DNA of 64,000 bases from IMG/VR virus record IMGVR_UViG_2778261503_000006. One strand, 5' to 3'. Below, piece by piece: positions 21,801-56,494 of the stretch. The DNA is from a virus. Taxonomy: Duplodnaviria > Heunggongvirae > Uroviricota > Caudoviricetes. Each line of letters opens with the position of its first letter. The stretch's first letter is position 1. A program made the translations under genes and the position numbers. The notes under the pieces are model-generated. The model was not told the origin of the DNA, made no database searches, and saw nothing but the letters and a program-made list of their open reading frames with translations.

Positions 21801-22702
21801 AAGGTCTGGAATCATTCTGGAGGACCGTGCTGGCATACCGTTTATTCCAGGGCAGGATGAAAGCCTTTAGCAATATCGATGATATTGAACGGATGTTTAA
21901 TCAGGTCAAGATCGCGAAAATTAAGGCGAAGATCGAAAAAACACGTTCTGCGCTGGTGGCCTGGCGCGATGCATTGTTTGAGCAATATAAATCACTCAGT
22001 GATGCAGATGGATGGGCGGCATTGGAACAGCTGGCGAATAATGGGGTAGATGGAGCGAAACTCGCCATTGTTCAGGCTGATAACCCCCTGGAATCACCGG
22101 CAGCACAGTGGATTAAGGTGGGGGCTGTCATCAATGCATTTGATGAAAAACACATTAGTAAGGACGATTTTGCTGATGCTGTTTCTGTTAATCGCCTGGT
22201 AGAAATGGCTACCCGCCGCGCCCGTGAGTTGAAAGACGGCGACTATGTGAATGAGTTGCCGGATACGCTCAAATCGGCAACGTGGCAGGACTATGTATCG
22301 CTGAAAAACGGCGGGGCCACTGAATCAGAGATCGCGGAAAGGCTTGAGCAGGCTGAAAGCAAAAGAGAAGAGCAGGCGGCAGTGGCTGAAGCCAGAGCTG
22401 ATGAAGCGGCGAATGATGACTATATCATTGTGGTTAATGATAAGCCGATTCGCGCTAAGGCGCGTGTTCGCGGGCGCTGGTGGAGCGTCAGCGAGGACGT
22501 TGGCGCGGTTTATCTCATTGCCGACCAACCAGGTTCCTCGACAATACGGAACGCCAAAGACGCGATTAAGAAGATTGGCGGACGTTTCTGGAATTTTGAA
22601 GCAAACCCGGTTGCTGATGTGAACTTTGACCGTCCTGCATGGATGGTATCTACGCGTTACTCGGTAGATGAACTGCGTAAAATAATCGCCGATGCGGCCT
22701 AA
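15866..22702 (+). CDS. darB: DarB-like giant antirestriction protein: N-terminal N6-adenine-methyltransferase-like domain plus SF2 helicase domain
   Basis: 2278 aa from TTG 15866 with AGAGGGGGAA RBS; EPSAGTGIF (nt 16232-16258) and GNVPF MTase-like motifs; Walker A GFGTGLGKTT (nt ~18394-18423), DEGH box (nt ~18986-19000), motif VI QRNGRGAR. Confidence 0.75.
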   Translation: MDKLLHSISEASSLGELIEIVSRLHKLRAVATFGVRKADGVSIQKTRRAANNAAVNLLNSLPPGFDGAKLTDEQRQILAGYTGEGGLTDGEGSQYEYYTPQFMAEGIWELFADYGIDGGHVLEPSAGTGIFQETKRQGMIMTSAELSPISGRINQLLHPEDDVNIGAFEALAAKDAMYDHAVGNVPFGEGRSGVAGLDPAYANEKNVGNYFVLRTIDKVKPGGLIVLVVPNGMTDGTKYKKLRDKVSRKAEFLGAHRMPSGTFSESGTDTVVDVWVLRKHPEAFLEMIPDTDDSTLKSANVLWVTFLKGKWFTTEGKRFVYGDMERTSFRNTLVVKKDGRVSNESMKTALSRRFDSRINWDLLGVTTQAWQGAKVGDKRLVGGIWHEFDGLKWVQDTTTKSSALDVSRYGVSTFGDLQIAFQSTNGILALSWDQISAIASDYPSVVSDEVAAMIRFAGKQREKDRERVMRGALIGQLINKALDLRNLGVNVDDKLADASRLAAAEVAKYGPPHAIKLNGLAEAGAKNWMTFTGNVKQDGSTSDLLAGRLDVTDGAAGIDFTRPEQVIAHLFSDVALNPITLGDFREAFAGELPEDDDAVLEYLAKFDDIAIDGYGCLLPMDRATSGDVATKTALLVGWRDASTGEQKANFERQLAKIEEKRIFTPLNKVTVNLNARWLDRRLIKEFLAEQGYDEFKYTEPDLKVVDGILVSPDDYEGKDGVFTGYQLRTVNGKNGNEFKKANNKDGFLNQLENYLNGVKPRGQNANEYLDKIAQLEVSFNDWLRTHPQADQIARDYNDAFNGFIPFTHSDAPLGLEGISGKRIPLTYQNEEVRRLSEDGRGIMGFGTGLGKTTTALALEAYNFETGRTKRTCIVVPKAVYQNWYHEAQSFYSADAFANMMFIGLDEVRDDSGNILTAPVLDENGEPRLDSNGQPLTRNVVKESSSAVIVQRMNMIPSSNWRTVIMTKEQFASIPLREKTIEENSQQAVFNAVEMGRLDLASGKHRDAQKKNKIKDQAANTGTTKKQNIPYFEDMNFDSVIADEGHNYRNSFNAGREAGQLAYLPNPAVSKMARDMAVKAAYMMKRNNGRGVVMLTATPLVNSPIDAFNMLSTVIPQEEWMRMGIITPDDFVRVFGKTATVQVQKISGEVEEKQGLVGFQNLDGLRGIFHRWTTLKTAADVGATVKIPDIIENTLQIPMTGEQETAYEELRKRAQELSRNDELTVDENGHITNDKPDDFIFSIIRDMDKVAIDPDLYASAITFQFPVELADQVKAIADALPKVAGGKVADDVDEAEEDGAGGLVSTRTSKVVKTAFSEHPTHVEIRASIELEAEILKAIAAAGIDMQQVSHPIPPKYAALIENLREGLKNGKQIVFIDEKAQHQKLRRIIASALQMPEQEIGIINATTVSQAGGIKLKKVNKPTEPTPNKNGEYKEGAWETYYSKLAQYEDYLSAKNDAGLEGMEGIAADYNEGRTRIIICNKKAEVGINLHIGTTDIHHLTLPWTPASIDQRNGRGARVGSPQEKVNVHYYCGKGTFDDFRLDTLKRKKDWIKMVMTSDMSEIANGDADDADERAIMLAANPEERRAIMARQAQEREERLKLKAQREANNALDIYLKAANAAGKDIGMMETELKSAMEQIEYYQRNLDDLIKAGTNRNGQKYALEQLSSYRKRARVLRFAITRAKDADTIMKRSRGDVERAIKSGVLDISIDVIQNPQEYMRTDKNILLHKGSYYRAVIDDRETTAIVRVEKIDGEKAQYLCRIAWLDRASRYARAPGSIVTLPFDSVIEAVTFEEGVAESRATAARGVQCHQLSTILTRDQFYDAIRNGVMNVIAGKPGNAWGGGSAIKYWAYRTDDGQIALSSAYDGVIGQKIGRASDIAPERWIYPDGNDEALKREVAKIQASDNPLNIVDGEGFLQALYGYDYTQGMQAWGAQATMDDVAHEFENWMAGRGLSGRSLNKVTSEDILSLFRKPSGEGLESFWRTVLAYRLFQGRMKAFSNIDDIERMFNQVKIAKIKAKIEKTRSALVAWRDALFEQYKSLSDADGWAALEQLANNGVDGAKLAIVQADNPLESPAAQWIKVGAVINAFDEKHISKDDFADAVSVNRLVEMATRRARELKDGDYVNELPDTLKSATWQDYVSLKNGGATESEIAERLEQAESKREEQAAVAEARADEAANDDYIIVVNDKPIRAKARVRGRWWSVSEDVGAVYLIADQPGSSTIRNAKDAIKKIGGRFWNFEANPVADVNFDRPAWMVSTRYSVDELRKIIADAA

Positions 22703-28880: not shown

Positions 28881-29456
28881 ATGTTAATGGCGAACGATAA
28901 CGCATATACAGAAGAAGATCTCATTTTGAGTGACTTCATAGGGAAGCGTGAACGCTGGACCCAAAAGCGAGAGGAAATTTACGCCTCATTAGTTCGCAAA
29001 GGCGTCAATATCGAAACCGCACAGAGCGGCGATATGACAGTGGTAAGCGTTGGATTGCACGGTGTAAGCGTGTCAGCAATCAATCATGAGCCATACGTTG
29101 CGTTATCCGAGTCAATGGTAAGGTTAGTTAAGTTCCTGAAATACACAGAAGCGAATAATGTAATCATTGGCAAAAAGAATATCCCTTTTTCCTCGGCTTT
29201 TTACTGGATGATGAAAGGGCTTGATGCCCGGCGGACATCATGGCCCAAAGGGAGCTATATATCGATGTTCCGTGGCAGTATTGGCAGCAAAGAAAAGCTC
29301 TTCGAATTCTTGCCGGAAGAGGCATTCGATATTGTGGAAGGGTGCGATGTGATGGTGATGCCTCGCCTGGTAATGATGAATGGGGATTTACAGGCGCAGA
29401 CAGACTGGTTTGCAACTGGTGTGGATATTATCGCGACTGACTGGGAGGCTTTCTGA
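28881..29456 (+). CDS. hypothetical protein with DUF2829-like C-terminal region
   Basis: 191 aa; C-terminal AFYWMMKGLDARRTSWPKGSYI...ATDWEAF resembles the DUF2829 pattern. Confidence 0.45.
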   Translation: MLMANDNAYTEEDLILSDFIGKRERWTQKREEIYASLVRKGVNIETAQSGDMTVVSVGLHGVSVSAINHEPYVALSESMVRLVKFLKYTEANNVIIGKKNIPFSSAFYWMMKGLDARRTSWPKGSYISMFRGSIGSKEKLFEFLPEEAFDIVEGCDVMVMPRLVMMNGDLQAQTDWFATGVDIIATDWEAF

Positions 29457-29848
29457 TGTACGGGACTACCAAATTAAGCACTCAACAGGCCACCAATATG
29501 GAGTGGTCTATCGCTAACTGTAAGATCGAGTCATGCAATGCCACGCGTACTGATGTGGGCCATAAAAGCACTATAACAGGCTATCTAGTAATGACCACCA
29601 GGGGGATAAGGGTTAGATTTCGCTGGAAAGCAGAGCAAGTAACCCCATTCAGAGAGCCATCAATGCCGCTGCAGGTTGAGCAGGATTATCTATGTTTACC
29701 AGAAATAGATGGAGGAATGCTGGTGGAGTCTGATGGTAGTAAGGCTGATTTTGAAGCCAATTTGAAGCTGGCACAGGCCGTAATCAATAGTTATCGCGGA
29801 CAGTGGATCGCAAAAGTGAAACATGTTGTTCGTTTGTCTCGCTGGTAG
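29456..29848 (+). CDS. hypothetical protein
   Basis: 130-aa ORF, start overlaps previous stop. Confidence 0.45.
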   Translation: MYGTTKLSTQQATNMEWSIANCKIESCNATRTDVGHKSTITGYLVMTTRGIRVRFRWKAEQVTPFREPSMPLQVEQDYLCLPEIDGGMLVESDGSKADFEANLKLAQAVINSYRGQWIAKVKHVVRLSRW

Positions 29849-29864
29849 CATTAGATATTTAGTA

Positions 29865-29883
29865 TTAATTTTCTAATACATTC
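29865..29883 (-). promoter_or_regulatory. operator-like motif, variant core (attaattttctaatacatt), reverse orientation
   Basis: upstream of Lpa-like gene; second variant ttagatatt at 29851-29859. Confidence 0.35.
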
Positions 29884-29956
29884 ATCTTTTTACCAGTCTA
29901 TACAGTTTTAACATTCTCATTATCATCCCCTCGGTCATTTCCTGCCCGGGGGATTA

Positions 29957-30349
29957 ATGGAACAAATCAGCAGCGCAGAAATTGCGGATATCATGATCAG
30001 GGCTGACTGCTATCTGACAGTCACTGAAATTACCACTCTCGCCAAAGAAAAATACCCTCATCTCCATGTTTCACGAGTAAGTGTAACTAACATCATTCGT
30101 CATTTTGTTCGTTCAAGCAGGGCAATCTGTGAGCTTGATGATCGTGTTTACCCACGAAAATACTGGTTGCATGGCCTGAACGGATATCAGTTCAAGGTGC
30201 GTGGGCGAACCCCTGAATATGGCAGTTTACTGGTTAAAAACTGTAGCAGGAAATCAGTCGAACAGGCGCGAAAAGAGCAACGAGAGCTGGTGGACATGGC
30301 GAATAAGCTGTGGAATGCCGCCGTTAAAAAGCGTGGTGTTGCTTTATGA
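29957..30349 (+). CDS. small regulatory protein (Lpa-like late promoter activator by position)
   Basis: 130 aa immediately upstream of terminase genes; synteny only. Confidence 0.4.
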   Translation: MEQISSAEIADIMIRADCYLTVTEITTLAKEKYPHLHVSRVSVTNIIRHFVRSSRAICELDDRVYPRKYWLHGLNGYQFKVRGRTPEYGSLLVKNCSRKSVEQARKEQRELVDMANKLWNAAVKKRGVAL

Positions 30350-31176
30350 GTCTGGTTAATTGGGAGGAGCACCGCGCCCGCTTTATAGCGTTGCGTGAAG
30401 AAAAAGGGATCACTGTAAAGGAATACTGTGAGGAGCATGGCCTTAGCTTCAATACAGCCAGAAAGCATCTCAATATGAAAAAAAATGAGGTGCGGTCGCA
30501 GGTAAAGACAACAAAAAAAAGCACCAAATCACCTGAAAAAAAACGGGCGGGAAGAGCAACAAAAAAGCTGGAAGAGGGTGCAGAAAAAACAAAATTTACA
30601 GAAATTGACAATTCGCAGGGCGCAGGTTCTTTCCGAAGTATGCCGAGAAAGAAAACTTCGGATCATGAAAATAATTCAAATAATAACAATGAGATAAAAG
30701 AATCTGTCAGGAGATCATTGCGCGAAAAAATGGCGAAAATGATCCCCGAAGAAGATAAAAACGCCCCAAAAATTGAGGGATCTTCTGCAATGATCCCTGA
30801 CGGTGCTGTGCAGCGTGCCACATTGCCAACTACGAATGTGGCTCGCGATATGATGAAGAACGGCGCAGAAGAACACCTGCGGTTAGCAATTCAAATGGCG
30901 CAAGAGCGCGCACTTCAGTATCAAAGCATTGTTGATCAGGAGGCCGAACGTCTACAGGCGGAAATAGACGCCTTGGGCGATAAAGAGCCAGAAGGAATGC
31001 ACCCTGGGCAGCGCCTTCTCGGTCTAATCAGTGACGCGGCCTACTACATTTTGGGATGTTCCCCTCCCACCAGCAGCAGCAGATCATTCAGTCAGTGCAG
31101 GAAACGGGGAGTAGGACGACCGTCACGTCCGGACACGGAACGGGGAAGTCGTCCCTTACCGCGATGTTGCTGTTGA
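30346..31176 (+). CDS. terminase small-subunit-like protein (PacA-like); 3' end probably not as in the track
   Basis: N-terminal HTH-like region; last ~40 aa (PPTSSSRSFSQCRKRG...) look like out-of-frame read of the next gene; overlaps 31056..32456 by 121 nt. Confidence 0.45.
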   Translation: MSLVNWEEHRARFIALREEKGITVKEYCEEHGLSFNTARKHLNMKKNEVRSQVKTTKKSTKSPEKKRAGRATKKLEEGAEKTKFTEIDNSQGAGSFRSMPRKKTSDHENNSNNNNEIKESVRRSLREKMAKMIPEEDKNAPKIEGSSAMIPDGAVQRATLPTTNVARDMMKNGAEEHLRLAIQMAQERALQYQSIVDQEAERLQAEIDALGDKEPEGMHPGQRLLGLISDAAYYILGCSPPTSSSRSFSQCRKRGVGRPSRPDTERGSRPLPRCCC

Positions 31177-32456
31177 TTTTTATGATCCTGTTCCCCGATG
31201 CCCGTGTCATCATTGTTGCTAACAAGATAGGCCAGGTAAAAACAGGCGTATTCAAATACGTTAAACAGTATTGGGCGAATGCAGTTAAGCGTCATGGGTG
31301 GTTGCAGACCTATTTTGTCCTCTCTGACACCATGTTTTATGAGCGCTCCCGTAAGGGGATTTGGGAAGTTCTCTGCAAAGGTTATCGACTCGGCAACGAA
31401 GAAGCGCTGGCGGGGGAACACGCGGCACATTTGCTTCTAATTCTGGATGAAGCATCTGGTATATCTGATAAGGCGATCGGCGTAATGACCGGTGCTCTTA
31501 CTGAAGAAGATAACCGGATGTTGATGCTATCCCAGCCAACAAGGCCAAGTGGTTATTTCTACGATTCGCACCATTCTCGAGCAAAAACCCCAGACAACCC
31601 GAAAGGGATCTGGACAGCAATTGTTCTTAACTCGGAAGAATCACCGTTCGTCACACCACAATTCATCAAGGAGAAGCTTCTGGAATATGGTGGGCGCGAT
31701 TCTATTGAGTACATGGTCAAGGTGCTTGGTCAGTTCCCACGAGAAATTAACGGCTATTTGCTTGGTCGTGATGAATGCGATCGCTCTGCTCGCCGCAAGG
31801 TGTTGTTGGAGAAAAACTGGGGATGGGTGGCAACGGCTGACGTTGGTAATGGGCGAGATAAGTCGGTCCTCAACATCTGCAAGGTATCAGGTCACAGGGA
31901 TAAGCGGCGCGTTGTTAACTTTAAGGTAATGGAGATGCCTGGCACTATGGACCCATTGGCCTTTGCTGACTTCATATATAACGAATGTACGCCGGAAAAA
32001 TACCCGAATATAACAATCGCGGTTGATGCTGATGGTTTTGGTTCTGATACGTGTGCGCAGTTGGTGCGTCGTGGTGCGAACCCGGTACGTATTCGGTGGG
32101 GAAAACCCATGTTTGCGAACAAAGACAGGGAGCGATTTGTTAATCAGCGTGCCTACGCAAATATTATGGCGCGAGATGCCATAAAGTCAGGGCGTATGCG
32201 GATAGACAGTGACCCTAAAACGGCAGAGCAAGCGTCAAAAATCCCCTTTTTACTGAATGAAGAAGGGAAAATGGCGATGATGCGCAAAGAGCACATGCGG
32301 CAAAAGCTAAACATCAAATCGCCTGACCGATGGGATACCTACTGCTTCACTATGCTGGTGGACTATGTGCCTGCTAATGAAGATATTGGTGCCGAAATGG
32401 CAACTTTCCGAGATCAGGTTCTGGCGGATATCGAAATGCCGGATCTGGATATATAA
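31056..32456 (+). CDS. terminase large subunit (PacB-like ATPase-nuclease)
   Basis: 466 aa; Walker A GHGTGKSS, Walker B LLLILDEASG, conserved GYFYDSHH block. Confidence 0.7.
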   Translation: MFPSHQQQQIIQSVQETGSRTTVTSGHGTGKSSLTAMLLLIFMILFPDARVIIVANKIGQVKTGVFKYVKQYWANAVKRHGWLQTYFVLSDTMFYERSRKGIWEVLCKGYRLGNEEALAGEHAAHLLLILDEASGISDKAIGVMTGALTEEDNRMLMLSQPTRPSGYFYDSHHSRAKTPDNPKGIWTAIVLNSEESPFVTPQFIKEKLLEYGGRDSIEYMVKVLGQFPREINGYLLGRDECDRSARRKVLLEKNWGWVATADVGNGRDKSVLNICKVSGHRDKRRVVNFKVMEMPGTMDPLAFADFIYNECTPEKYPNITIAVDADGFGSDTCAQLVRRGANPVRIRWGKPMFANKDRERFVNQRAYANIMARDAIKSGRMRIDSDPKTAEQASKIPFLLNEEGKMAMMRKEHMRQKLNIKSPDRWDTYCFTMLVDYVPANEDIGAEMATFRDQVLADIEMPDLDI

Positions 32457-32483
32457 AGCCCCGCGATGCGGGGCCGGTTGTGA

Positions 32484-33521
32484 TTACCAGAGCTTCGCGG
32501 CGTACTGCGTTTGGGGGAATGTGTATCCGTAACGTTCTTCGATTGCTTTGCCGTATTTTTTACGAGCTTCATTCAGTTTTATGCCGGTCAGGTCGTCTCC
32601 AGAGGCCATCATTACGTCTAACAATTCCAGATCCATTTTATCCAGCCTTGCCATTGCTTCACGTGATGTACGTATCTTACGCTCAATGATATGGCGAATA
32701 GCCGGATCGGCATCCTCCAGCATCTTAGCGGATTTCTGCTTAAGGCTTTCATTGCGAATATCGATGTTCCTTAAGATGTACGACTTCGCAACGTAGCTTG
32801 GCTGGTGTTTTTCCAGGTCACGAACACGATATAAGTTAAAATCGCCGAGAAGGCTGCAAGGTACCGATTCGACGCCAGAATAAATTGTAATGCTCCGGCG
32901 CTCACCAACATTATTGACAACGGGGATCGTTGTCTTCGGTAGTCTTGCGAAAACCAATGCGCCATGTGCGCCAACTCTAAAGCGAGAAAGGGCATTGCTG
33001 CCTTCGATGTTTGTTGTCAGCACAACATCTGTATATGCCTCTTTACGCGCCCGGTAGATCTCGCCTTCAGGCTCAGCTTCAAAGAAGCGCTGTTCTTCTT
33101 CAAGAGCACCTACGATTTGAGAAAAAACCCTATTTTTCAGGCTTTTCTTTATGATTTTGTCGTATTTTTTGAGCAATTGTTCACGTGTAAATGTACGTGT
33201 TGTTGTAGCGCTTTGCACAACAACATGCGTGCTTTGATTGGTGTCCTCAATGATGAATGGGATCGGAGAATATACAGACTCAACAATGTTCGACGCTTTG
33301 CCGTCGGCATCGCGGCACATGTCAACGAAGGCTTTCCATTCAGCAAGACATTTTTCAGCTTCTTCTAATATGTTTTGGTCATGCGTTAATGCAACATGGC
33401 GGAATTCCTCGCCAGCATAACTGGTATCATGGAAAACAGAGTTTGCGACCACCAGCTCTTTCCACCGTTCAGCGGTTTGCAGGAACCGTTTGTACTCTTT
33501 CTCGATCGACTTCTTACTCAT
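32484..33521 (-). CDS. hypothetical protein divergent from the recombinase locus (candidate immunity repressor by position only)
   Basis: 345 aa; operator-like motif 14-37 bp upstream of its start; no motif recognised. Confidence 0.5.
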   Translation of the reverse strand: MSKKSIEKEYKRFLQTAERWKELVVANSVFHDTSYAGEEFRHVALTHDQNILEEAEKCLAEWKAFVDMCRDADGKASNIVESVYSPIPFIIEDTNQSTHVVVQSATTTRTFTREQLLKKYDKIIKKSLKNRVFSQIVGALEEEQRFFEAEPEGEIYRARKEAYTDVVLTTNIEGSNALSRFRVGAHGALVFARLPKTTIPVVNNVGERRSITIYSGVESVPCSLLGDFNLYRVRDLEKHQPSYVAKSYILRNIDIRNESLKQKSAKMLEDADPAIRHIIERKIRTSREAMARLDKMDLELLDVMMASGDDLTGIKLNEARKKYGKAIEERYGYTFPQTQYAAKLW

Positions 33522-33534
33522 TATTCCTACTCGA

Positions 33535-33558
33535 TTTAGTTTTCTAACATAAAATTAC
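33535..33558 (-). promoter_or_regulatory. operator-like motif overlapping the promoter region of the 32484..33521 gene
   Basis: tttagttttctaacataaaattac; core TGTTAGAAA on minus strand. Confidence 0.45.
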
Positions 33559-33731
33559 TATGACAAATTTATGTCGAATAACAGAGTGAGTAAAGGATCG
33601 AACTGTGATTTTTTGTCATCAAATTTAGAAAACCAACTGTATAAACCACGCTTCGCAAATTAAAGACCATGAAGGCAACGTGTTACTGGTCAGAATCAAT
33701 CTGTGATGGATTAAAAAAAATCGCCATTTTA

Positions 33732-33763
33732 TAACTTTAAATAATTGGCATTATTTAAAGTTA
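33732..33763. other. rox-like 32-bp recombination site (14-bp inverted arms, 4-bp spacer)
   Basis: taactttaaataat tggc attatttaaagtta is a perfect 14-4-14 palindrome; its reverse complement matches the rox site of the Dre recombinase as I recall it; ~150 bp upstream of the recombinase gene. Confidence 0.8.
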
Positions 33764-33915
33764 GGCTATAATTATGGGTAGATGATCAGTATTGACATCA
33801 CTGAAAATACGCGCCTCGAATCAAAGGCTTGAATCTTGAAAATTAACTTATAGCTACCCTGTCATTTTTATATTTTTCGCGTAGCGTTATCTGTATATAG
33901 AGGTTAAATAGTTTC

Positions 33916-34944
33916 ATGAGTGAATTAATTATCTCTGGCAGCTCCGGTGGTTTTCTGCGCAACATTGGCAAAGAGTACCAGGAGGCCGCAGAAAACTTTA
34001 TGCGGTTCATGAATGACCAGGGGGCTTATGCGCCGAATACTCTGCGCGACCTCCGGTTGGTGTTTCATTCATGGGCGCGCTGGTGTCACGCTCGCCAGCT
34101 TGCCTGGTTTCCGATCTCACCAGAAATGGCCCGCGAGTATTTTCTTCAGCTGCATGATGCCGATCTGGCTTCGACCACCATTGATAAGCACTACGCCATG
34201 CTGAATATGCTGCTTTCGCATTGTGGCCTTCCGCCACTTTCGGATGATAAAAGTGTTTCTCTGGCTATGCGGCGCATCCGGCGCGAAGCGGCAACTGAAA
34301 AAGGCGAACGAACAGGCCAGGCTATACCGCTTCGGTGGGACGATCTGAAACTGCTCGACGTCCTGTTGTCCAGGTCAGAACGGCTGGTGGACCTGCGCAA
34401 CCGGGCTTTTCTCTTTGTTGCATACAATACGCTGATGCGTATGTCGGAAATCTCGCGTATTCGTGTAGGAGATCTGGATCAAACAGGTGACACTGTCACG
34501 CTACATATTTCACACACGAAGACAATAACGACCGCCGCCGGGCTTGATAAGGTGCTTTCCCGTCGCACTACCGCTGTGCTGAATGACTGGCTGGATGTTT
34601 CCGGGCTTCGCGAACATCCTGACGCAGTGCTGTTCCCGCCGATACACCGTAGCAATAAGGCCAGGATCACGACAACGCCCCTTACTGCACCTGCAATGGA
34701 GAAAATATTCAGCGACGCCTGGGTGTTGCTGAATAAAAGAGATGCTACGCCAAACAAAGGAAGATACCGGACGTGGACCGGGCATAGTGCACGCGTCGGG
34801 GCCGCTATTGATATGGCTGAAAAGCAGGTGTCTATGGTGGAGATCATGCAGGAAGGAACCTGGAAGAAACCGGAAACACTTATGCGGTATCTTCGCCGTG
34901 GCGGCGTGTCTGTGGGGGCTAATAGCCGCCTGATGGATTCGTAA
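33916..34944 (+). CDS. dre: Cre-family tyrosine recombinase (Dre-like)
   Basis: 342 aa; SVSLAMRRIRRE, LRNRAFLFVAYNTLMRMSEISRIRVGDL and WTGHSARVGAAIDMAEKQVSMVEIMQEGTW align block-for-block with P1 Cre. Confidence 0.85.
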   Translation: MSELIISGSSGGFLRNIGKEYQEAAENFMRFMNDQGAYAPNTLRDLRLVFHSWARWCHARQLAWFPISPEMAREYFLQLHDADLASTTIDKHYAMLNMLLSHCGLPPLSDDKSVSLAMRRIRREAATEKGERTGQAIPLRWDDLKLLDVLLSRSERLVDLRNRAFLFVAYNTLMRMSEISRIRVGDLDQTGDTVTLHISHTKTITTAAGLDKVLSRRTTAVLNDWLDVSGLREHPDAVLFPPIHRSNKARITTTPLTAPAMEKIFSDAWVLLNKRDATPNKGRYRTWTGHSARVGAAIDMAEKQVSMVEIMQEGTWKKPETLMRYLRRGGVSVGANSRLMDS

Positions 34945-34963
34945 ATTAAATTTCTAACACATC
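34943..34963 (-). promoter_or_regulatory. operator-like motif (aaattaaatttctaacacatc)
   Basis: starts within the recombinase stop codon. Confidence 0.4.
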
Positions 34964-35017
34964 TTTTTAGATTAACGCCTTTGCTGTAAAGTACCCTCGC
35001 CTATTTAGGAGGGTGCT

Positions 35018-35362
35018 TTGCAGAGTCAAATCACGGAATCAAGACGCTTCAAGGTGGATGGTTACACCGTAACCTTCGCCGCTGGTGTTAAGAACAGTCA
35101 TGCTGTCGTTGTGTTCGGCATCATGACCGGGCTTGAGGCCGTCCCTGTGTTTACCCTCGAAAAAAACTGGCGAAATCTGGAGGAAGCAGAAAGCTACGTC
35201 CGGAAAGTAACCATCATTGCCGCCGAAAAACTCCTGGCCCACTATCAGGAAAATTATCGCACTATGGTCGAGAAGATTAATCTCGCTTTCACTCGCCCCA
35301 CTACCGGCTTTATTGCACCGGATACTAATGCCGGTCGATATCCTGCAAGGGGGTGTCGGTGA
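35018..35362 (+). CDS. hypothetical protein downstream of recombinase
   Basis: 114 aa from TTG 35018 with AGGAGGG RBS. Confidence 0.4.
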   Translation: MQSQITESRRFKVDGYTVTFAAGVKNSHAVVVFGIMTGLEAVPVFTLEKNWRNLEEAESYVRKVTIIAAEKLLAHYQENYRTMVEKINLAFTRPTTGFIAPDTNAGRYPARGCR

Positions 35363-35835
35363 AAACTTATTACCCATCTCTGAATTGTTACCCGTCTTCC
35401 TATCCAGAATTATCCGGGAAGCTGTTAGCTCTATTAGCTAAAGCACCTACGGAATGGTTTAAGCCAGTCGTTATCAATCCACACTTCCTGGGTTACGGAT
35501 CTGTTCGCACTCGTAACGAACTCAAAAACCTACTGGCGCATGGATTCATTCGACACCGTGCCGGGAAAGGCTATCAGTTAGCGATTGCGCCAGAAGAGGC
35601 CGTGCGGCTATTCGCATATCGTGACAGCCAGACAAAAACTCGGGTAATAGCTCAAATACTTCATAACGGCAGCACCTATGCCCGCCAGTTTGGCGGCGAC
35701 ACGTCGCAGTTCTTGCGGGCGGTGCGATCGCTGGATGAGCAAGGAGTTATTGAAAGTTCCTGTCTTCCTGTTCCTACCGTTCCACATATCAAACGTCGGG
35801 TTTACACCTTCACGCAGAGAGCTAAAAAACAATGA
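35353..35835 (+). CDS. hypothetical protein
   Basis: 160-aa ORF from GTG 35353. Confidence 0.4.
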   Translation: MSVKTYYPSLNCYPSSYPELSGKLLALLAKAPTEWFKPVVINPHFLGYGSVRTRNELKNLLAHGFIRHRAGKGYQLAIAPEEAVRLFAYRDSQTKTRVIAQILHNGSTYARQFGGDTSQFLRAVRSLDEQGVIESSCLPVPTVPHIKRRVYTFTQRAKKQ

Positions 35836-36326
35836 TTTACGTAAAAGTGAAACGCCTACATCCGGCAGCAAAACTTCCAGCTTATGCCACCTCCGGATCG
35901 GCGGCGATGGATTTTGAGGCTGTTGAAATAAAACCATGCGTCGATAGCAATGGTGCAATTTCCTCAAGCTGGTGGGTGTATACCGGACTGGCTATGGAGA
36001 TCCCGCCCGGCTGGTGTCTGAAACTCTATCCGCGATCAGGATTGGGCTGCAAAAAACATACTCGCCTGGCTAACTGCGTAGGAATTATCGACTCCGATTA
36101 TCGCGGCGAAATCATGGCAAAACTGATTACTGATCCCGGCGGGGAAGGCGTTTGTCTCAAGCCTGGAATGGCTGTCATGCAAGGAATTTTTGAGCGTGTT
36201 GAACAAGTCTCACTAGTCGAGGTTGAGGAACTCAACGAAACGGAGCGTGGTGCTGGTGGCTTTGGTAGCACATCGGAAGGCCACTTTGAAATTAAGCGTT
36301 CACCGCTTCAGTACGAAAAGTTATAA
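35832..36326 (+). CDS. dut: dUTP diphosphatase (dUTPase)
   Basis: 164 aa; GIIDSDYRGEI and C-terminal RGAGGFGSTS motifs. Confidence 0.8.
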   Translation: MIYVKVKRLHPAAKLPAYATSGSAAMDFEAVEIKPCVDSNGAISSSWWVYTGLAMEIPPGWCLKLYPRSGLGCKKHTRLANCVGIIDSDYRGEIMAKLITDPGGEGVCLKPGMAVMQGIFERVEQVSLVEVEELNETERGAGGFGSTSEGHFEIKRSPLQYEKL

Positions 36327-36340
36327 GCAGAGAAAAGACT

Positions 36341-36781
36341 ATGAATAACATGGCAACGAAAGAGCTTTTTAAGTTCCGTCCCAAATACAAAGCTCACAAA
36401 AAAAATGGAACCACGGTCATCATTACGGATGACAACGGCGTGATGATTAATCTTACCGGGAGCGTAACTATTTCTGCTGGTGGCATCACCACCCAGCAAG
36501 AAGAAATCGACCTTGAAGCAGCCGACTTTTCAGACGCGCTGATGTGGCTGAAGGAAGGCAAGAAAGTTGCTCGACGCGGGTGGAACGGCGAAAACCAATT
36601 CTGCTGGCTGGTTCCTGAAGGACAGTACCCGGCACGAATGGAAGCCATTAAGGGATATTTCCCCGGCGACCTCGTTCCGTATGGTGCTTATTTCGCCTTA
36701 AAAAATGCACAAGGTGTAGTTGTTCCGTGGGTGCCTTCAGTTGGCGACCTGCTGGCCTGTGACTGGTTTGTTGTGGAGTGA
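36341..36781 (+). CDS. DUF2829-domain protein (Tad2-like fold candidate)
   Basis: 146 aa; FSDALMWLKEGKKVARRGWNGENQF...ACDWFVVE matches the DUF2829 hallmark as I recall it. Confidence 0.6.
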   Translation: MNNMATKELFKFRPKYKAHKKNGTTVIITDDNGVMINLTGSVTISAGGITTQQEEIDLEAADFSDALMWLKEGKKVARRGWNGENQFCWLVPEGQYPARMEAIKGYFPGDLVPYGAYFALKNAQGVVVPWVPSVGDLLACDWFVVE

Positions 36782-36787: not shown

Positions 36788-37555
36788 ATGGAAAGCACTA
36801 AAACAATTCAATACCGCTTGCGTAATGGCCTGCTGGTGGCTGTTAACGCCGACATGTCACTGCCGTTTGACACGATTGAACGCACTATCATGACGTATCT
36901 CGGCTTTAATGAAGAGCTGAATGAAGAGCATGGCGTAGCTATATGGAGTGATGCAGACAGCGGCGTTCGTCGTTACATCACCGCCAGGGGCAAAGACTAC
37001 TCTCTGGAAGAACTGTTTGCCCTTGCGCAGTCTTTCGAATGTGTAGCATTAGACCTGTTTAATGATCCTGCTATAGCGCAACGACTTATACGCGAGCTTG
37101 GGCTATCCGTTACACCAATTATATTTAAAAATGGCAGCCTGACTGGCACATGGCGCGTAGAACGCATCTCAAACTACCTTCCATATAACCGACAGTTAAA
37201 TGGAGTAATCTCCGGCGTTAACCAGCCCGTAGCGTGTGAAAATGTAAACCTAGTTGTCGCTGTTTTGGCAACCGCATGTCGTGTTATCGGTTTGGCTAAA
37301 CAGGCATTTATTCATTTCCCAAATGGTGCAGAAGGTAGCGCAGAGATTATCGCGTGTGATTTCGAATTTACCTGGATGCTACGCGAATATCTGGACCAAA
37401 CAGTATTCCGTGCCGAAGAACTGGATATGTATATCACGTCAACGATTCCAGACGATGTGCGAGCTGAAGCAATCGCTACAGCCAGGGCGAAATGCCGTGC
37501 GGCGATTGCAGAACAGGCCAAAGAAGAAGTTAAGGAAGTGGCAGATGGCGACTAA
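36788..37555 (+). CDS. hypothetical protein
   Basis: 255-aa ORF. Confidence 0.45.
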   Translation: MESTKTIQYRLRNGLLVAVNADMSLPFDTIERTIMTYLGFNEELNEEHGVAIWSDADSGVRRYITARGKDYSLEELFALAQSFECVALDLFNDPAIAQRLIRELGLSVTPIIFKNGSLTGTWRVERISNYLPYNRQLNGVISGVNQPVACENVNLVVAVLATACRVIGLAKQAFIHFPNGAEGSAEIIACDFEFTWMLREYLDQTVFRAEELDMYITSTIPDDVRAEAIATARAKCRAAIAEQAKEEVKEVADGD

Positions 37556-38639
37556 GAGCAATATTTATAAAGATCCGCGCTGGCTGTCGCTGGTGGAGAA
37601 ATATAAAGACAATTGGGTACTGGCAGCAAAAGAATTGTTTGATATTGATTTAAGCCACCAGCAACAACAAATTGTTGAAGCTATACAGCCCAATAATGCA
37701 AAAGCTACTGTCACCACTCCGTATGGGATCGGACGACCGCAAGTGCTTGCTGTTATTAGTACCCTTTATACGATTATGTATCCTGATTCCCGGACAGTAA
37801 TTGTTTATCCAAAATCAAATGTTTGCAAAAGAGGAATTGTTGCATATGTGTGGCAATGTTGGGAGGCATTGCTGAAAAAACAACCTTTTATCATTGAGTA
37901 TTTTAAGGTCGGTGATAGCGGTCTGATGTTCAATGAATTTTGGGGAATGTGCTTTTGTAACTTCCGCCTTAACTATGAAGATAGCATTGCAGGTCACTAC
38001 GCCGACCATCTTTTATTCATTATTGTGGATTCCGCACATATCAGCGATCGGGCATACAGCATTGTGTGGGCAAGCATGACTAGTGGTGATTCACGCATAT
38101 TGCTCACTTCAATTCCGTCACCAGAGGAAATAGGCTTTTTTTATGATTCACATCATGGACGTGCTTTAGCTGAAGATAATCCGAGTGGTGTATATAAAGC
38201 CATTAAGCTGAGTGCGGAGGATTCACCATTTATTACCCAAGAATATCTTGATCATTTTGCCGAAAGGTATGGCGGGCGAAATAGTGATGACTATCGTCGT
38301 ATGATTCTTGGTGAGTTCCCTGGTATTAGGGAGGCTGTTCTTGAATCAGATATGCCGAAGACAATGCGCTTTTCGATGCCTGATGGTAGTGAATGGACAA
38401 TACCATTACGAGTGATAGCCCGGCATCATGCGCAGCACCACGCCAAAAAACATGGCGTCACGACATTAGAATGGTTGAAATCGCACACCATTCCACTCTT
38501 CACTGCAGATCACAATGCTATCGTTGAGTGGGCAAAAACAATTCCGTGGGAGAATGTCGCTGAATACGCCCACATGCTAAAACCGCCGAAAGACAGGCAA
38601 GAAATTAGCTGGCTGACAGCAGAAAAAATCATTGAGTGA
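37545..38639 (+). CDS. terminase large-subunit ATPase-domain paralogue with degenerate catalytic motifs
   Basis: 365 aa from ATG 37545; aligns with 31056..32456 (SHQQQQI, HLLFIIVDSAH vs HLLLILDEASG, GFFYDSHHGRA vs GYFYDSHHSRA) but Walker A is TTPYGIGRP and no nuclease domain follows. Confidence 0.6.
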   Translation: MATKSNIYKDPRWLSLVEKYKDNWVLAAKELFDIDLSHQQQQIVEAIQPNNAKATVTTPYGIGRPQVLAVISTLYTIMYPDSRTVIVYPKSNVCKRGIVAYVWQCWEALLKKQPFIIEYFKVGDSGLMFNEFWGMCFCNFRLNYEDSIAGHYADHLLFIIVDSAHISDRAYSIVWASMTSGDSRILLTSIPSPEEIGFFYDSHHGRALAEDNPSGVYKAIKLSAEDSPFITQEYLDHFAERYGGRNSDDYRRMILGEFPGIREAVLESDMPKTMRFSMPDGSEWTIPLRVIARHHAQHHAKKHGVTTLEWLKSHTIPLFTADHNAIVEWAKTIPWENVAEYAHMLKPPKDRQEISWLTAEKIIE

Positions 38640-39276: not shown

Positions 39277-39384
39277 AAACACCTCGTGTGCTCGTTATGT
39301 GTACGCAATTATAGGTTTTAATGATGCTGAATACCACTTCTTGGTGCCTTAAATCCTCGAGATGCAGTCTTGCAATTGCTGGGA

Positions 39385-39807
39385 TTAAGCAGAATAAGTG
39401 GTTGGAATTCTGAGCAGTAATCCAATCTTGGCTATGTGCTCATATGGCAGCTCTCCGGTTTTACCATCATGTATCGAGGCTATCAGATTCAATTCTTGCG
39501 CCGCTTTACGAATTTCAGTTTCTGATGGAACAAGGCGAAAACCGATGTGTAACATTTTGATATAGAAAGGTAATAGTTCGTACTTCACCCGTAACTGTGC
39601 TGCCGCATCTTTCAAATCATGGATGATTTCTTGTTTTAAGTCAGAGCGGGGATTCGATAGCTTTGCTTGGTTAGACAATAACAGATGCGATATTTCCCCC
39701 AACTGTTCCTTGAATGAAATGTAAGACTCAACCCCCTTGATGATGAGTCGACCTAGGACAAAAACGCTTACTCCAGTGACAACAGTGACAAAAGCAGACG
39801 AACTCAT
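39385..39807 (-). CDS. hypothetical protein with N-terminal membrane anchor
   Basis: 140 aa; N-terminal FVTVVTGVSVFVLGRLII hydrophobic segment. Confidence 0.45.
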   Translation of the reverse strand: MSSSAFVTVVTGVSVFVLGRLIIKGVESYISFKEQLGEISHLLLSNQAKLSNPRSDLKQEIIHDLKDAAAQLRVKYELLPFYIKMLHIGFRLVPSETEIRKAAQELNLIASIHDGKTGELPYEHIAKIGLLLRIPTTYSA

Positions 39808-39941
39808 TCGCGTACCTAAAAAGAGAATTATAACCTCATCTTATCTTCAAGTGAGTAACCGCGTCTAATGGGAGGAATCATTTAAATGGCCAGGGCGATA
39901 TAGATCCAGTCATGCCTCTCTATGGTTTCTCTGAAAACAAA

Positions 39942-40331
39942 TCATATAGCAGGACTATCATCAAATTCACCGCCCCTGGCGTCATTGATAATGTGGGTGA
40001 TCACACCAAAAACAGCATTACTACCCGTGTAACCATCGTCATCTACTGGTAACGCCTCTTTCTTCCCGGTGCTTAAATCCTCCAGGTGCTGGCGCGGATA
40101 CTTCCGGTATCTTTTTACGCGATATTCTCCCTCCATAGCGCACACAAGCAGCGAACCATCAACTGGAGTAAGCGAAGAATCAACCACCAGCAAAGCACCC
40201 TGCAATATTCCCTCACGGTGATGGCTGTCTGCCGCCCGCATGAAGTATGTCGCTGATGGATGCCTGATTAGTTGCTGATCAAGAGAAATTCGGCTTTCAA
40301 CATAGTCCGCCGCAGGAGAAGGGAAGCCCAT
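39942..40331 (-). CDS. humD: UmuD-like S24 peptidase-fold protein (HumD-like)
   Basis: 129 aa; GFPSPAADYVE start typical of UmuD-prime-like proteins; sits upstream of phd-doc as humD does in P1. Confidence 0.65.
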   Translation of the reverse strand: MGFPSPAADYVESRISLDQQLIRHPSATYFMRAADSHHREGILQGALLVVDSSLTPVDGSLLVCAMEGEYRVKRYRKYPRQHLEDLSTGKKEALPVDDDGYTGSNAVFGVITHIINDARGGEFDDSPAI

Positions 40332-40578
40332 AGCGTTTTCACCTCAATAATACTGTTCATTTATACAGTATACATTAAAGAGACACATTTGGTGCAAACG
40401 CGTTACGTACATCAACCACCGCAGATGATTTTGTGCGCTTTGCTACTATTCATCACCAACGAATCAGCGTAACCTCGTTGCCCGGATTAGAGAAATGCAA
40501 AACGATAATAAAGGCTAAATCGAGGTAGAAAACACATTGTTTAAGGCCACTAATTGTGACCTCAAAGGGGAGAGATGC

Positions 40579-41130
40579 TTATTGGCTATGGCTAAAAATC
40601 AAATGAGACACTTCATGTGGTTGTAGCTCGTCAAGATCCGGGGCCACAAAACCTTTTCCGAAAGACTTCACAAGTGATTCACCAGCCGCATCATTGTCAC
40701 CTATTACGCGAAAGTCATACGGCAGCATCGCAAGTTGACGGCGTAATCCTGCGGAGAAAGTTGAACCTAACAGCGCCCACGAATTGCCGCCCGCGTTGTG
40801 TACAGCTGCGCTCTTAAAAATAGACTCAGTTATCCATATTGGGCCATCTTTTAAAGGAAGATAGGTTCCCCAAAGTAACTGTCTGCCGTGTGATCGCGTG
40901 AAATACCGGGCCATCTTCGGATTGCTATGCTGCTTAGGTGCACCTGGTCTATATGTCTGATACCCAGCCAACATCCCATCAAACCTGTAGAGAGGGAATG
41001 TAACTACTCCTTCGCTTTCATCGATCCACTGTCTATATGGGTGTATATCATGGCGGTAGTTGCGAGTTAGCAAATGAGCTTCCAGCTTTCCAAATTTTGT
41101 CATATTCCGTTCTTCCTGCATACTGGGCAT
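40579..41130 (-). CDS. hypothetical protein
   Basis: 183-aa ORF. Confidence 0.45.
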   Translation of the reverse strand: MPSMQEERNMTKFGKLEAHLLTRNYRHDIHPYRQWIDESEGVVTFPLYRFDGMLAGYQTYRPGAPKQHSNPKMARYFTRSHGRQLLWGTYLPLKDGPIWITESIFKSAAVHNAGGNSWALLGSTFSAGLRRQLAMLPYDFRVIGDNDAAGESLVKSFGKGFVAPDLDELQPHEVSHLIFSHSQ

Positions 41131-41405
41131 GTGTTCTCTGTGAAATATGGGAAACTATTATCCAGCTCATCTACCCACTGTTTATGGTCGAAGCAGAAAA
41201 ATATCTCCCACGGCATTCCATATTCTTCCATCCATAGGCGGATCTGCATTTCTATTGGAATCGGCGGTATTGCAGACACCATATCAACAGGATAACAGTT
41301 CAGACGACGTTCCAGTTCTTCTACTCTCTTCTGGAGATGAAATATCCGATCCAGATGCACACGCCGCTCCCGTGCCATTTTAAAATAAAGCTCGCCGGTC
41401 ATCAT
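41100..41405 (-). CDS. small coiled-coil protein with C-terminal Cys motif (paralogue of 41405..41689)
   Basis: C-terminal FFCFDHKQWVDELDNSFPYFTENTCPVCRK parallels AFWCYDHRRWCDELDSSFPYFAEGNSCPECRR. Confidence 0.4.
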   Translation of the reverse strand: MMTGELYFKMARERRVHLDRIFHLQKRVEELERRLNCYPVDMVSAIPPIPIEMQIRLWMEEYGMPWEIFFCFDHKQWVDELDNSFPYFTENTCPVCRKNGI

Positions 41406-41689
41406 TAACGCCTACATTCAGGGCAAGAGTTCCCTTCTGCAAAATAGGGGAAACTGCTATCAAGCTCATCACACCATCTGCGATGGTCGTAGCACCAAAA
41501 CGCCTCCCACGGTGCACGGAAATACTTCATCCACCAGGACACTCGATCAGGTATATCTGCTGGTGGCAGTTCTTCTGGCAATAATTTGCCTGATAATTCC
41601 CTTTCCGCCCGCGACAGCATTTTTTTGAGGCTCGCGTTCTCTTTTTCAAGCTCATCTACGCGCACCTGTAATTCAGCTTTCGTTGGCAT
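41405..41689 (-). CDS. small coiled-coil protein with C-terminal Cys motif (paralogue of 41100..41405)
   Basis: start set at internal ATG 41689 (MPTKAELQ...); track's longer ORF overlaps the upstream gene. Confidence 0.4.
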   Translation of the reverse strand: MPTKAELQVRVDELEKENASLKKMLSRAERELSGKLLPEELPPADIPDRVSWWMKYFRAPWEAFWCYDHRRWCDELDSSFPYFAEGNSCPECRR

Positions 41690-43193: not shown

Positions 43194-43203
43194 GTGTTAC
43201 TCC

Positions 43204-43467
43204 TTAACCCGCAGTGCTTTCAACTGATGAGGGGAACAAAATCTTTTCATCAAACCCTGCATTCATATCATGAACAGCAACACACCAATCCATCGACGAA
43301 CGATTATCAAGAGTCTCCATGATTTCATCCATGCGGCGCAGGTCATACAGGTAAATGCTTTTATCGCCAATGGTGTAAAAACCAATTTTTTTCGGTGATG
43401 GACAGCGATCAAGAACGTCCTGTAATTCGTTCAACCATGCCCGTTCTTTTTTTGTTAAAGTTGCCAT
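43204..43467 (-). CDS. hypothetical small protein
   Basis: 87 aa from ATG 43467 (MATLTKKERAWLNELQ...) with AGGAGA RBS. Confidence 0.4.
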   Translation of the reverse strand: MATLTKKERAWLNELQDVLDRCPSPKKIGFYTIGDKSIYLYDLRRMDEIMETLDNRSSMDWCVAVHDMNAGFDEKILFPSSVESTAG

Positions 43468-43468
43468 A

Positions 43469-43879: not shown

Positions 43880-43880
43880 C

Positions 43881-53799: not shown

Positions 53800-54087
53800 A
53801 TGAAGAAAATAGATTTCACTTACTCTGCTGCCACAATCCAGCGACGTTTCAGTCTCATAAGGGAAGTGGAACTATCAAAAAACTGCTATCAAATTCTACT
53901 GGATGAAGAGTTTTCACTGATGGTTATAGCAGAAAAATTGGCTATGCCGAATGACCGACACAAGGTCATAGCCAGCCTCGATCTGGTGACAAACAGATAC
54001 TGGGAGACAGAGGAACTACATGAAGCGGGAGTAATTCGTGGCCTGATGGAGAATTCCGTTCCCCGTCGTTATAGTGTGATGAGCTAA
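53800..54087 (+). CDS. hypothetical protein
   Basis: 95-aa ORF. Confidence 0.4.
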   Translation: MKKIDFTYSAATIQRRFSLIREVELSKNCYQILLDEEFSLMVIAEKLAMPNDRHKVIASLDLVTNRYWETEELHEAGVIRGLMENSVPRRYSVMS

Positions 54088-56406: not shown

Positions 56407-56494
56407 AAACTTTAATGCTTTATATTATAAAAACATACAGCGACAACGCAGCCACCAAGATGTGTTGTCGCCATGTTCAAAGTGCTAACACAGT

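What the first reader, a model, noticed from the sequence alone, without database searches (positions are those of the whole stretch)
30346..32456. Terminase gene pair with a 121-nt frame overlap suggesting a frameshift or gene fission, plus a GATC cluster
Seen: the pacA-like ORF ends at 31176 with a Ser/Arg/Pro/Cys-rich tail that looks like an out-of-frame read; the pacB-like ORF opens at 31056 and cannot extend upstream beyond a stop at 31032-31034. The paralogue at 37545 has ~35 residues N-terminal to the shared SHQQQQI block, and its AA...L segment aligns with ISDAAYYIL in the pacA frame just before 31056, implying the two frames were once continuous. Four GATC sites fall within 30712-30800. 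Established: the P1 pac site lies inside pacA and contains Dam-methylated GATC hexamer repeats.
Basis: partly seen in the sequence, partly recalled or inferred. Interest (0 to 1): 0.45.

Follow-up and report, generated by a model that had tools for sequence, protein, structure and literature searches.

The report
Deleted terminase genes in D6-like plasmid prophage
The odd overlap between the two DNA-packaging genes of this E. coli plasmid prophage is the scar of a 762-base deletion, found in this one isolate only, that cuts the end off one gene and the start off the other; this is ordinary prophage decay, not a frameshift signal or a gene fission.

Summary
The window is an Escherichia coli plasmid prophage about 98-99% identical to phage D6 across lpa-pacA-pacB-c1-rox-dre. 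The described sequence features are real. They come from a 762-bp deletion relative to D6 and every relative examined. The junction is at 31049/31050, with 1 nt of microhomology. The deletion removes PacA residues 235-454 and PacB residues 1-34. In D6 the two genes lie in different frames and the deletion is a multiple of 3. The pacA frame therefore runs out of frame into pacB, giving the 42-residue Ser/Arg/Pro/Cys tail. The "pacB start" at 31056 is the internal Met37 and has no Shine-Dalgarno sequence. None of the 110 PLSDB plasmids or 97 complete E. coli genomes that match a junction probe spans the junction. It occurs only in GCA_002232105.1 and in an independent assembly of run SRR3957118. 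The element is most likely packaging-defective. GATC density alone is not significant. However, five GATC sites at 30661-30795 are invariant in relatives down to 68% identity while neighbouring synonymous positions vary. This is probably a D6-type pac element, but it does not have P1's 4+3 TGATCA/G layout. The locus is already known; interest is low.

The parts
29957..30349 (+). lpa (late promoter activator), overlaps the pacA start by 4 nt; context gene
   Evidence: Pfam BPP1_LPA, E = 5e-57. Annotated lpa in D6.
30346..31049 (+). pacA', native part: codons 1-234 of the small terminase / pacase A subunit, including the N-terminal HTH
   Evidence: 98% identical to D6 PacA residues 1-235. Collinear with AY753669 nt 761-1464. 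Weak HTH_23 match at residues 7-42. Intact D6 PacA matches phrog_1711 'terminase', E = 3e-183.
30659..30797 (.). Array of five conserved GATC (Dam) sites inside pacA (GATC at 30661, 30713, 30741, 30779, 30792). Motifs: RGATCA x3 and AATGATCCC x2, the latter 51 nt apart. Candidate D6-type pac element (inferred).
   Evidence: All five are invariant in 7 sequences from 3 clades down to 68% identity. Only 11% of 4-nt windows in this region are invariant. Synonymous positions inside GATC are fixed while adjacent ones vary. The control GATC at 30934 is lost in the diverged clades.
31049..31050 (.). Deletion junction: 762 bp of D6 (AY753669 nt 1465-2226) are missing; 1-nt (T) microhomology
   Evidence: Window 29586-31049 = D6 1-1464 and window 31049-36000 = D6 2226-7177. 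Junction read base by base.
31050..31176 (+). Non-native tail of pacA': pacB codons 35-76 read out of frame, ending at TGA 31174-31176
   Evidence: Three-frame translation and comparison with D6 PacB.
31050..31056 (+). T TTG GGA: an X XXY YYZ heptamer in the pacA frame, created at the junction. A -1 slip here would enter the pacB frame.
   Evidence: Only such heptamer inside the overlap. No unusual downstream structure, z = -0.44. Almost certainly incidental.
31056..32456 (+). pacB': large terminase / pacase B subunit from internal Met37 to the native stop. Walker A GHGTGKS and the nuclease half are retained; the N-terminal 36 residues and the native ribosome-binding site are lost.
   Evidence: 99% identical to D6 PacB residues 35-502. 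100% identical to pB2C_96 PacB residues 37-502. Terminase_6N and phrog_2 matches. The D6 GGAGG upstream of its ATG is absent here.
32484..33521 (-). c1 repressor, convergent with pacB'; intact context gene
   Evidence: D6 annotation. PF27008 Phage_P7_repressor_C1.
37545..38639 (+). ATPase-domain homologue with a degenerate Walker A (PYGIGRPQ) and an unrelated C-terminal ~100 aa. Not part of the lesion.
   Evidence: 37% identity to D6 PacB residues 10-264. phrog_5902, E = 9e-165. Absent from phage D6 itself. Present in pB2C_96.

Best explanation
The region is the pacA-pacB (small and large terminase, 'pacase') operon of a D6-like plasmid prophage of E. coli. It carries a 762-bp deletion found only in this isolate or its close lineage. 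The intact locus is known from P1. PacA binds the pac site that lies inside its own gene. PacB, an ATPase-nuclease, cuts there together with PacA, IHF and HU. Headful packaging then follows. In this window, illegitimate recombination with 1 nt of microhomology joined pacA codon 235 to pacB codon 34. Because the two genes lie in different frames, pacA' now encodes 234 native residues plus 42 nonsense residues. pacB' can only start at internal Met37, which has no Shine-Dalgarno sequence and lies inside a translated region. The lost parts are the C-terminal 220 residues of PacA and the conserved N-terminus of PacB. The inferred consequence is that the element still replicates as a plasmid but cannot cut pac or package its DNA, so it is a freshly defective phage-plasmid. 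The deletion, its derived state, its restriction to one lineage and the frame logic are shown. The loss of pacase function is inferred.
For: Window 29586-36000 is collinear with D6 AY753669 at about 98% identity, apart from one 762-bp gap. The junction and frames were read directly. D6, pB2C_96, five further relatives down to 68% nucleotide identity, and P1 all keep full-length PacA (454, 440 or 397 aa) and PacB (494-502 aa). None of the 110 PLSDB records or 97 complete E. coli genomes that match a 121-nt junction probe spans the junction. The junction has no exact match in GTDB genomes, IMG/VR or JGI metagenomes. The exact 276-aa product occurs only in GCA_002232105.1 (contig NLUX01000021.1, same coordinates as the window) and in a Logan assembly of SRR3957118 that is 100% identical over 5.9 kb, junction included. 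The deleted DNA is nowhere else in the window. The missing PacB N-terminus is conserved in P1 PacB and in the paralogue (DPRW...Y..). The native GGAGG before the pacB start is lost. Among 88 conserved ORFs compared with pB2C_96, pacA and pacB are the only core phage genes truncated; a variant DUF2829 accessory gene is also shorter. This fits a recent event. P1 pacase biology is taken from PMC10028697.
Against: No reads were inspected. If SRR3957118 is the same isolate as the GenBank assembly, the two assemblies are not independent samples. Loss of function is not tested. PacB' keeps every recognisable ATPase and nuclease motif and could be made at a low level. About 25 kb of the plasmid and the rest of the genome lie outside the window, so a second pacAB copy elsewhere in the cell cannot be excluded.
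Confidence: 0.88

Rival explanations
1. Programmed -1 ribosomal frameshift: ribosomes translating pacA' slip at T TTG GGA (31050-31056) into the pacB frame and make a PacA(1-234)-PacB(37-502) fusion that serves as a single-chain pacase.
For: The heptamer fits X XXY YYZ in the pacA frame. It lies where the pacB frame is open (after TGA 31032-31034). It is the only such heptamer in the overlap, and a -1 slip is the required direction.
Against: The heptamer in this frame is created by the deletion itself and is not in that frame in any homologue. About 0.2 such heptamers are expected by chance in 47 codons (own arithmetic: 1/256 per codon). No downstream structure stands out, z = -0.44 with 60 of 200 shuffles folding as well, and there is no upstream SD-like stimulator. 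Any fusion would still lack 220 PacA residues and 36 PacB residues that are conserved in P1.
Confidence: 0.03
2. Small-indel frameshift, or fission of an ancestral single terminase gene: the pacA and pacB frames were once continuous.
For: The out-of-frame tail and the missing PacB N-terminus look superficially like a frameshifted single ORF.
Against: The difference from every relative is 762 bp, not 1-2 bp. pacA and pacB are separate, differently framed genes with a 1-nt stop/start overlap in D6 and in P1. The paralogue's N-terminus aligns with intact PacB, not with the pacA frame.
Confidence: 0.01
3. Assembly or sequencing artefact: the plasmid in the cell is intact and the 762 bp were dropped during assembly.
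For: The source is a draft assembly, with the plasmid split over contigs. No reads were examined.
Against: There is no repeat at the breakpoints that could collapse; homology is 1 nt only. A second assembly made by a different pipeline (Logan, SRR3957118) gives the identical junction. The segment is unique within the window.
Confidence: 0.06

Closest known systems
Phage D6 pacA-pacB (AY753669; NC_050154 gp003/gp002) and D6-like plasmid prophages such as pB2C_96 (NZ_CP035876.1)
   Same: Same genes in the same order (lpa-pacA-pacB-c1-rox-dre). About 98-99% nucleotide identity to D6. 100% identity to pB2C_96 over the 10.1 kb left of the junction.
   Different: The window lacks 762 bp across the pacA/pacB boundary, so both products are truncated. 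No other record has this junction.
Phage P1 pacase and pac site (NC_005856: pacA 90529-91722, pacB 91722-93206, pac cleavage at 90804-90813)
   Same: Two-subunit terminase. PacB is 56% identical and PacA about 20% identical with the same N-terminal HTH. A cluster of Dam sites lies inside the 5' third of pacA. The D6 site at pacA nt 316 (S-D-H) aligns with the P1 HEX3 element D-D-H.
   Different: P1 has seven TGATCA/G hexamers in a 4 + 3 layout about 95 bp apart, plus an annotated IHF site. The D6 type has five sites (RGATCA x3, TGATCC x2) over 136 nt with no site matching TGATCA/G. No IHF consensus was found within one mismatch.
Defective P1-like phage-plasmids that have become plain plasmids through gene loss (Pfeifer and Rocha 2024, PMC10879196)
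   Same: Loss of an essential phage function while plasmid maintenance genes persist.
   Different: Here a single small lesion affects only the terminase pair and the other compared core phage genes are intact, so this is a very early stage of decay.

Membership tests
P1/D6-type pacase operon (pacA-pacB) | PacA homologue with an N-terminal helix-turn-helix | tested here: met
   Residues 1-234 are about 98% identical to D6 PacA. Weak HTH_23 match at residues 7-42.
P1/D6-type pacase operon (pacA-pacB) | Full-length PacA (397-454 aa) including the C-terminal half | tested here: not met
   Truncated after residue 234, followed by 42 out-of-frame residues.
P1/D6-type pacase operon (pacA-pacB) | PacB with Walker A/B ATPase and C-terminal nuclease half | tested here: met
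   Residues 37-502 are present and 99-100% identical to D6 / pB2C_96 PacB. Terminase_6N and phrog_2 matches.
P1/D6-type pacase operon (pacA-pacB) | Conserved PacB N-terminus (DPRW...Y.. segment) and its own ribosome-binding site | tested here: not met
   Codons 1-34 and the GGAGG upstream are deleted. The segment is conserved in P1 PacB and in the paralogue.
P1/D6-type pacase operon (pacA-pacB) | pac cleavage and headful packaging activity | not testable with these tools
   Needs induction, complementation and cleavage assays.
P1-type pac site | Lies inside the 5' part of pacA | tested here: met
   GATC array at pacA nt 316-450; P1 pac is at pacA nt 195-350.
P1-type pac site | Seven TGATCA/G hexamers arranged 4 + 3 around the cleavage site | tested here: not met
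   Five sites: GGATCA, AGATCA, TGATCC, GGATCT, TGATCC. None matches TGATCA/G.
P1-type pac site | Dam (GATC) cores under selection at the DNA level | tested here: met
   All five are invariant in 7 sequences from 3 clades. Synonymous positions inside GATC are fixed while flanking ones vary. R/G amino-acid swaps keep the GA. The control site at nt 589 is lost.
P1-type pac site | IHF binding site next to the cleavage point | tested here: not met
   No WATCAANNNNTTR within one mismatch in 30600-30900 on either strand.
P1-type pac site | Cut by pacase; virion DNA ends map there | not testable with these tools
   No D6 virion end data could be read: the D6 papers are not held and the D6 records annotate no pac feature in the stretches fetched.
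Programmed -1 ribosomal frameshift site | X XXY YYZ heptamer in the upstream frame within the overlap | tested here: met
   T TTG GGA at 31050-31056.
Programmed -1 ribosomal frameshift site | Downstream stimulatory structure or upstream SD-like element | tested here: not met
   Fold of 31057-31140 gives z = -0.44. No SD-like sequence upstream.
Programmed -1 ribosomal frameshift site | Conserved in homologues | tested here: not met
   The frame relationship exists only because of the deletion. All homologues have separate full-length genes.

The most novel reading that the evidence does not exclude
The five invariant GATC elements at 30659-30797 are the pac site of D6-like phage-plasmids, built differently from P1's 4+3 TGATCA/G hexamers (RGATCA x3 plus AATGATCCC x2). 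This plasmid has lost its pacase but keeps that site intact. It would then behave as a helper-dependent replicon that only a co-infecting D6-like phage supplying PacA/PacB in trans could package.
Probability: 0.3. Interest if true: 0.35.

Novelty: already known. Interest (0 to 1): 0.15.

Why it matters
It matters mainly for annotation. The two ORFs should be labelled as disrupted pacA and pacB (pseudogenes) of a D6-like plasmid prophage, not as an overlapping or frameshifted terminase pair. The plasmid should be scored as probably unable to form infective particles. This is relevant when phage-plasmids are counted as vehicles of gene transfer. The side result is a testable candidate for the D6-type packaging site: five Dam sites in pacA held constant at the DNA level in relatives whose pacA 5' region is only 68-70% identical.

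Tried and rejected
1. Frameshift or fission reading: rejected once alignment to D6 showed a 762-bp gap.
2. GATC density as evidence: rejected, because shuffles reach the same density in 27-71% of trials. Conservation across relatives was used instead.
3. Match to P1 pac hexamers and to an IHF consensus: not found.
4. Paralogue as a relative of P1 pdcB, the gene next to doc in P1: no similarity.
5. Paralogue and neighbouring ORFs against PADLOC and NCBIfam: no hits.
6. Solved structures for PacA and PacB by sequence: none. No structural statement about the lost segments was therefore possible.
7. The D6 and P1 source papers could not be read: Sauer and McDermott 2004, Gilcrease and Casjens 2018, Lobocka 2004. 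Whether a D6 pac site has been mapped is unknown to me.
8. A search for other carriers through the 427- and 430-aa pacB' gene calls found only the same isolate, plus two plasmids with intact pacA where the 430-aa product is just a different start call.
Full report
**What the region is.** A megablast of window 30000-33000 finds phage D6 at 99% identity, in two pieces that span 3763 bases of D6 for 3001 bases of query. The D6 records annotate lpa, pacA (454 aa), pacB (502 aa), c1, the rox site, dre and dut in the order seen here. Pfam agrees for the flanking genes: BPP1_LPA for 29957-30349, tyrosine recombinase for 33916-34944, and a weak Terminase_6N match for the second ORF. The window is therefore the immC/pac region of a D6-like plasmid prophage. 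An exact-sequence look-up places it on contig NLUX01000021.1 of E. coli assembly GCA_002232105.1, at the same coordinates as the window.

**Checking the observation.** The ORFs are as described: 30346-31176 (276 aa) and 31056-32456 (466 aa), overlapping by 121 nt. A TGA at 31032-31034 closes the pacB frame upstream. The Ser/Arg/Pro/Cys-rich tail is real. Four GATC sites start at 30713, 30741, 30779 and 30792, and a fifth at 30661.

**What caused it.** Pairwise BLAST against AY753669 gives two collinear blocks: window 29586-31049 = D6 1-1464, and window 31049-36000 = D6 2226-7177. The window therefore lacks 762 bp.
- The left flank in D6 reads ...CTACTACAT|GAATG.
- The right flank in D6 reads ...GATAT|TTTTGGGATG.
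- The window reads CTACATTTTGGGATG, so homology at the joint is a single T.

In D6 the pacA stop and the pacB start overlap by one base, so the genes lie in different frames. The deletion joins pacA codon 235 to pacB codon 34. Because 762 is a multiple of 3, the pacA frame continues through pacB codons 35-76 out of frame for 42 codons until TGA at 31174-31176. The ATG at 31056 is Met37 of D6 PacB. The deletion removes PacA residues 235-454, PacB residues 1-34 and the native GGAGG ribosome-binding site of pacB. The new context (ACATTTTGGG|ATG) has no Shine-Dalgarno sequence. The deleted DNA is not found elsewhere in the window, and no second PacA C-terminal half is present.

**Direction of the change, and how widespread it is.**
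- Full-length pacA and pacB occur in D6, in pB2C_96, in five further plasmids chosen to span 93% down to 68% identity (E. coli, E. marmotae, S. dysenteriae, E. fergusonii), and in P1. The window's state is therefore derived.
- The 40 best-matching records listed from each of PLSDB and the complete E. coli genomes hold the query in two pieces spanning about 2873 bases. That is the intact length; one record has an IS inserted and three differ by 1-2 nt.
- A 121-nt probe centred on the junction matches 110 plasmids and 97 complete E. coli genomes, but none across the joint.
- The 35-nt junction has no exact match in GTDB genomes, IMG/VR or JGI metagenomes.
- The exact 276-aa product is on record only for GCA_002232105.1 and for a Logan assembly of run SRR3957118. 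That contig is 100% identical to the window over 5941 bp, junction included.
- Two other plasmids share a 430-aa pacB gene call, but they have an intact 454-aa pacA. That call is only a different start choice.

The junction is thus reproduced by a second assembler. There is no repeat at the breakpoints that could cause a collapse, so an assembly artefact is unlikely, although I could not inspect reads.

**State of the rest of the element.** The nearest complete relative is pB2C_96. It is 100% identical over the 10.1 kb left of the junction and 99.3% identical over the 5.3 kb to the right. Among 88 ORFs of 100 aa or more shared at 85% identity or better, pacA and pacB are the only core phage genes truncated. 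The other length differences are start-codon choices, record-origin effects, antisense ORFs, variant accessory genes (including a shorter DUF2829/Tad2-like gene at 36341-36781) or the window end. The lesion therefore looks recent. Other D6-like plasmids carry independent lesions in the same pair: an ISVsa5 insertion in NZ_CP077493.1, and 1-2-nt length differences in three records that may be sequencing errors.

**How it most likely works.** Established for P1 (PMC10028697; NC_005856 annotation):
- PacA and PacB together, with IHF and HU, recognise and cut a 161-bp pac site inside pacA.
- That site holds seven TGATCA/G hexamers whose Dam methylation controls cleavage.

Shown here:
- D6 PacB is 56% identical to P1 PacB, including the N-terminal DPRWR..V..YRY segment.
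- The paralogue keeps that segment too.
- PacA is about 20% identical to P1 PacA, with the same N-terminal HTH.

Inferred:
- A PacA lacking its C-terminal 220 residues, and a PacB lacking a conserved N-terminus and a ribosome-binding site, cannot form an active pacase.
- In phage lambda the C-terminus of the small subunit binds the N-terminus of the large subunit. This is from my own knowledge and was not tested here. If the same holds for PacA and PacB, the deletion removes both partners of that contact.
- The element should persist as a plasmid but fail to package DNA, which is an early step on the phage-plasmid-to-plasmid route described for P1-like elements (PMC10879196).

In the pacA frame, the only X XXY YYZ heptamer inside the overlap is T TTG GGA at 31050-31056. 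It was formed at the junction, and a -1 slip there would enter the pacB frame just before Met37. I treat this as incidental, for four reasons:
- The frame relationship is created by the deletion and is absent from all homologues.
- About 0.2 such heptamers are expected by chance in 47 codons (own arithmetic, 1/256 per codon).
- The downstream 84 nt fold no better than shuffles, z = -0.44.
- There is no SD-like element upstream.

**The GATC cluster.** Density alone is not evidence. Four GATC per 100 nt is reached in 71% of dinucleotide shuffles of the window, and five per 140 nt in 27%. The sites also do not match P1 pac. P1 has TGATCA x4 at pacA nt 195-229 and TGATC(A/G) x3 at nt 325-348. Here the sites are GGATCA, AGATCA, TGATCC, GGATCT and TGATCC at nt 316, 368, 396, 434 and 447. 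No IHF consensus was found within one mismatch.

Comparison across relatives changes the picture.
- In an alignment of seven pacA 5' regions from three clades, only 43% of columns and 11% of 4-column windows in nt 150-500 are invariant, yet all five GATC sites are invariant.
- In nt 300-500, four of the five invariant runs of 6 nt or more contain a GATC: CGGATCA, GATCATT, AAATGATCCC and AATGATCCC.
- The constraint acts on the DNA. The Asp codon at nt 316 stays GAT and both Ile codons stay ATC in all sequences, while the adjacent codons vary (CAT/CAC, CCC/CCT/CCA, TCT/TCA).
- At nt 368 and nt 434 the amino acid switches between Arg and Gly but the GA is kept.
- The GATC at nt 589 serves as a control: it is lost through a synonymous GAT to GAC change in the diverged clades.
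- D6-like plasmids also encode a large Dam-family methyltransferase (pB2C_96).
- In the PacA alignment, the S-D-H at nt 316 falls opposite the D-D-H of P1's HEX3 element.

I conclude that this array is a functional DNA element and probably the D6-type pac site. That is an inference by analogy and has not been shown. The array lies upstream of the deletion and is intact in the window.

**The paralogue.** ORF 37545-38639 aligns with D6 PacB residues 10-264 at 37% identity. It belongs to phrog_5902. Its Walker A is degenerate (PYGIGRPQ in place of GHGTGKS), and an unrelated C-terminal ~100 aa replaces the nuclease half. It is absent from phage D6 itself. It is present in pB2C_96, and copies at about 51% identity occur in a few P1-like records. 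It cannot replace PacB. Its N-terminus shows what the window's pacB' has lost, not that the pacA and pacB frames were once continuous.

**Verdict.** The locus is a known one (D6 pacAB) carrying an ordinary loss-of-function allele confined to one isolate or lineage. Interest is low. The conserved GATC array is the only part that offers a new, testable lead.

Noticed in passing
window 37545-38639 (+): PacB paralogue of 364 aa. Its ATPase domain is 37% identical to PacB, but Walker A has no lysine (PYGIGRPQ) and an unrelated C-terminal ~100 aa replaces the nuclease half. It matches phrog_5902 over its full length. It is absent from phage D6, present in pB2C_96, and present at about 51% identity in a few P1-like records. 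It lies next to doc/phd. It might act as a decoy or exclusion factor against incoming P1/D6-type packaging; this is untested. No PADLOC, Pfam or NCBIfam hit.
   Followed up: partly
window 28881-29456 (+) and 36341-36781 (+): Two Tad2-like / DUF2829 (PF11195, Thoeris anti-defence family) ORFs flank the lpa-pac-c1-dre module. The second is a shorter variant (146 aa against 220 aa in pB2C_96, 85% identity).
   Followed up: no
window 1-1063: Several mutually similar segments match the pB2C_96 tail-fibre and recombinase region (19874-21922) in both orientations. This looks like a Cin/Min-type invertible tail-fibre cassette, in a different arrangement from pB2C_96.
   Followed up: no
L004 (NZ_CP035876.1) and other D6-like plasmids: NZ_CP077493.1, CP042632.1, NZ_CP050999.1, NZ_MN101855.1: Independent lesions of the same terminase pair in other D6-like plasmids. 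NZ_CP077493.1 has an ISVsa5 insertion within pacAB. Three other records differ in pacAB length by 1-2 nt, which may be sequencing errors.
   Followed up: no
window 39300-44350 and 54076-61100: Accessory regions on the phd/doc side are mosaic relative to pB2C_96, with gaps and 90-97% identical blocks. The identity drop begins just right of the pac junction: 100% on the left against 99.3% on the right.
   Followed up: no
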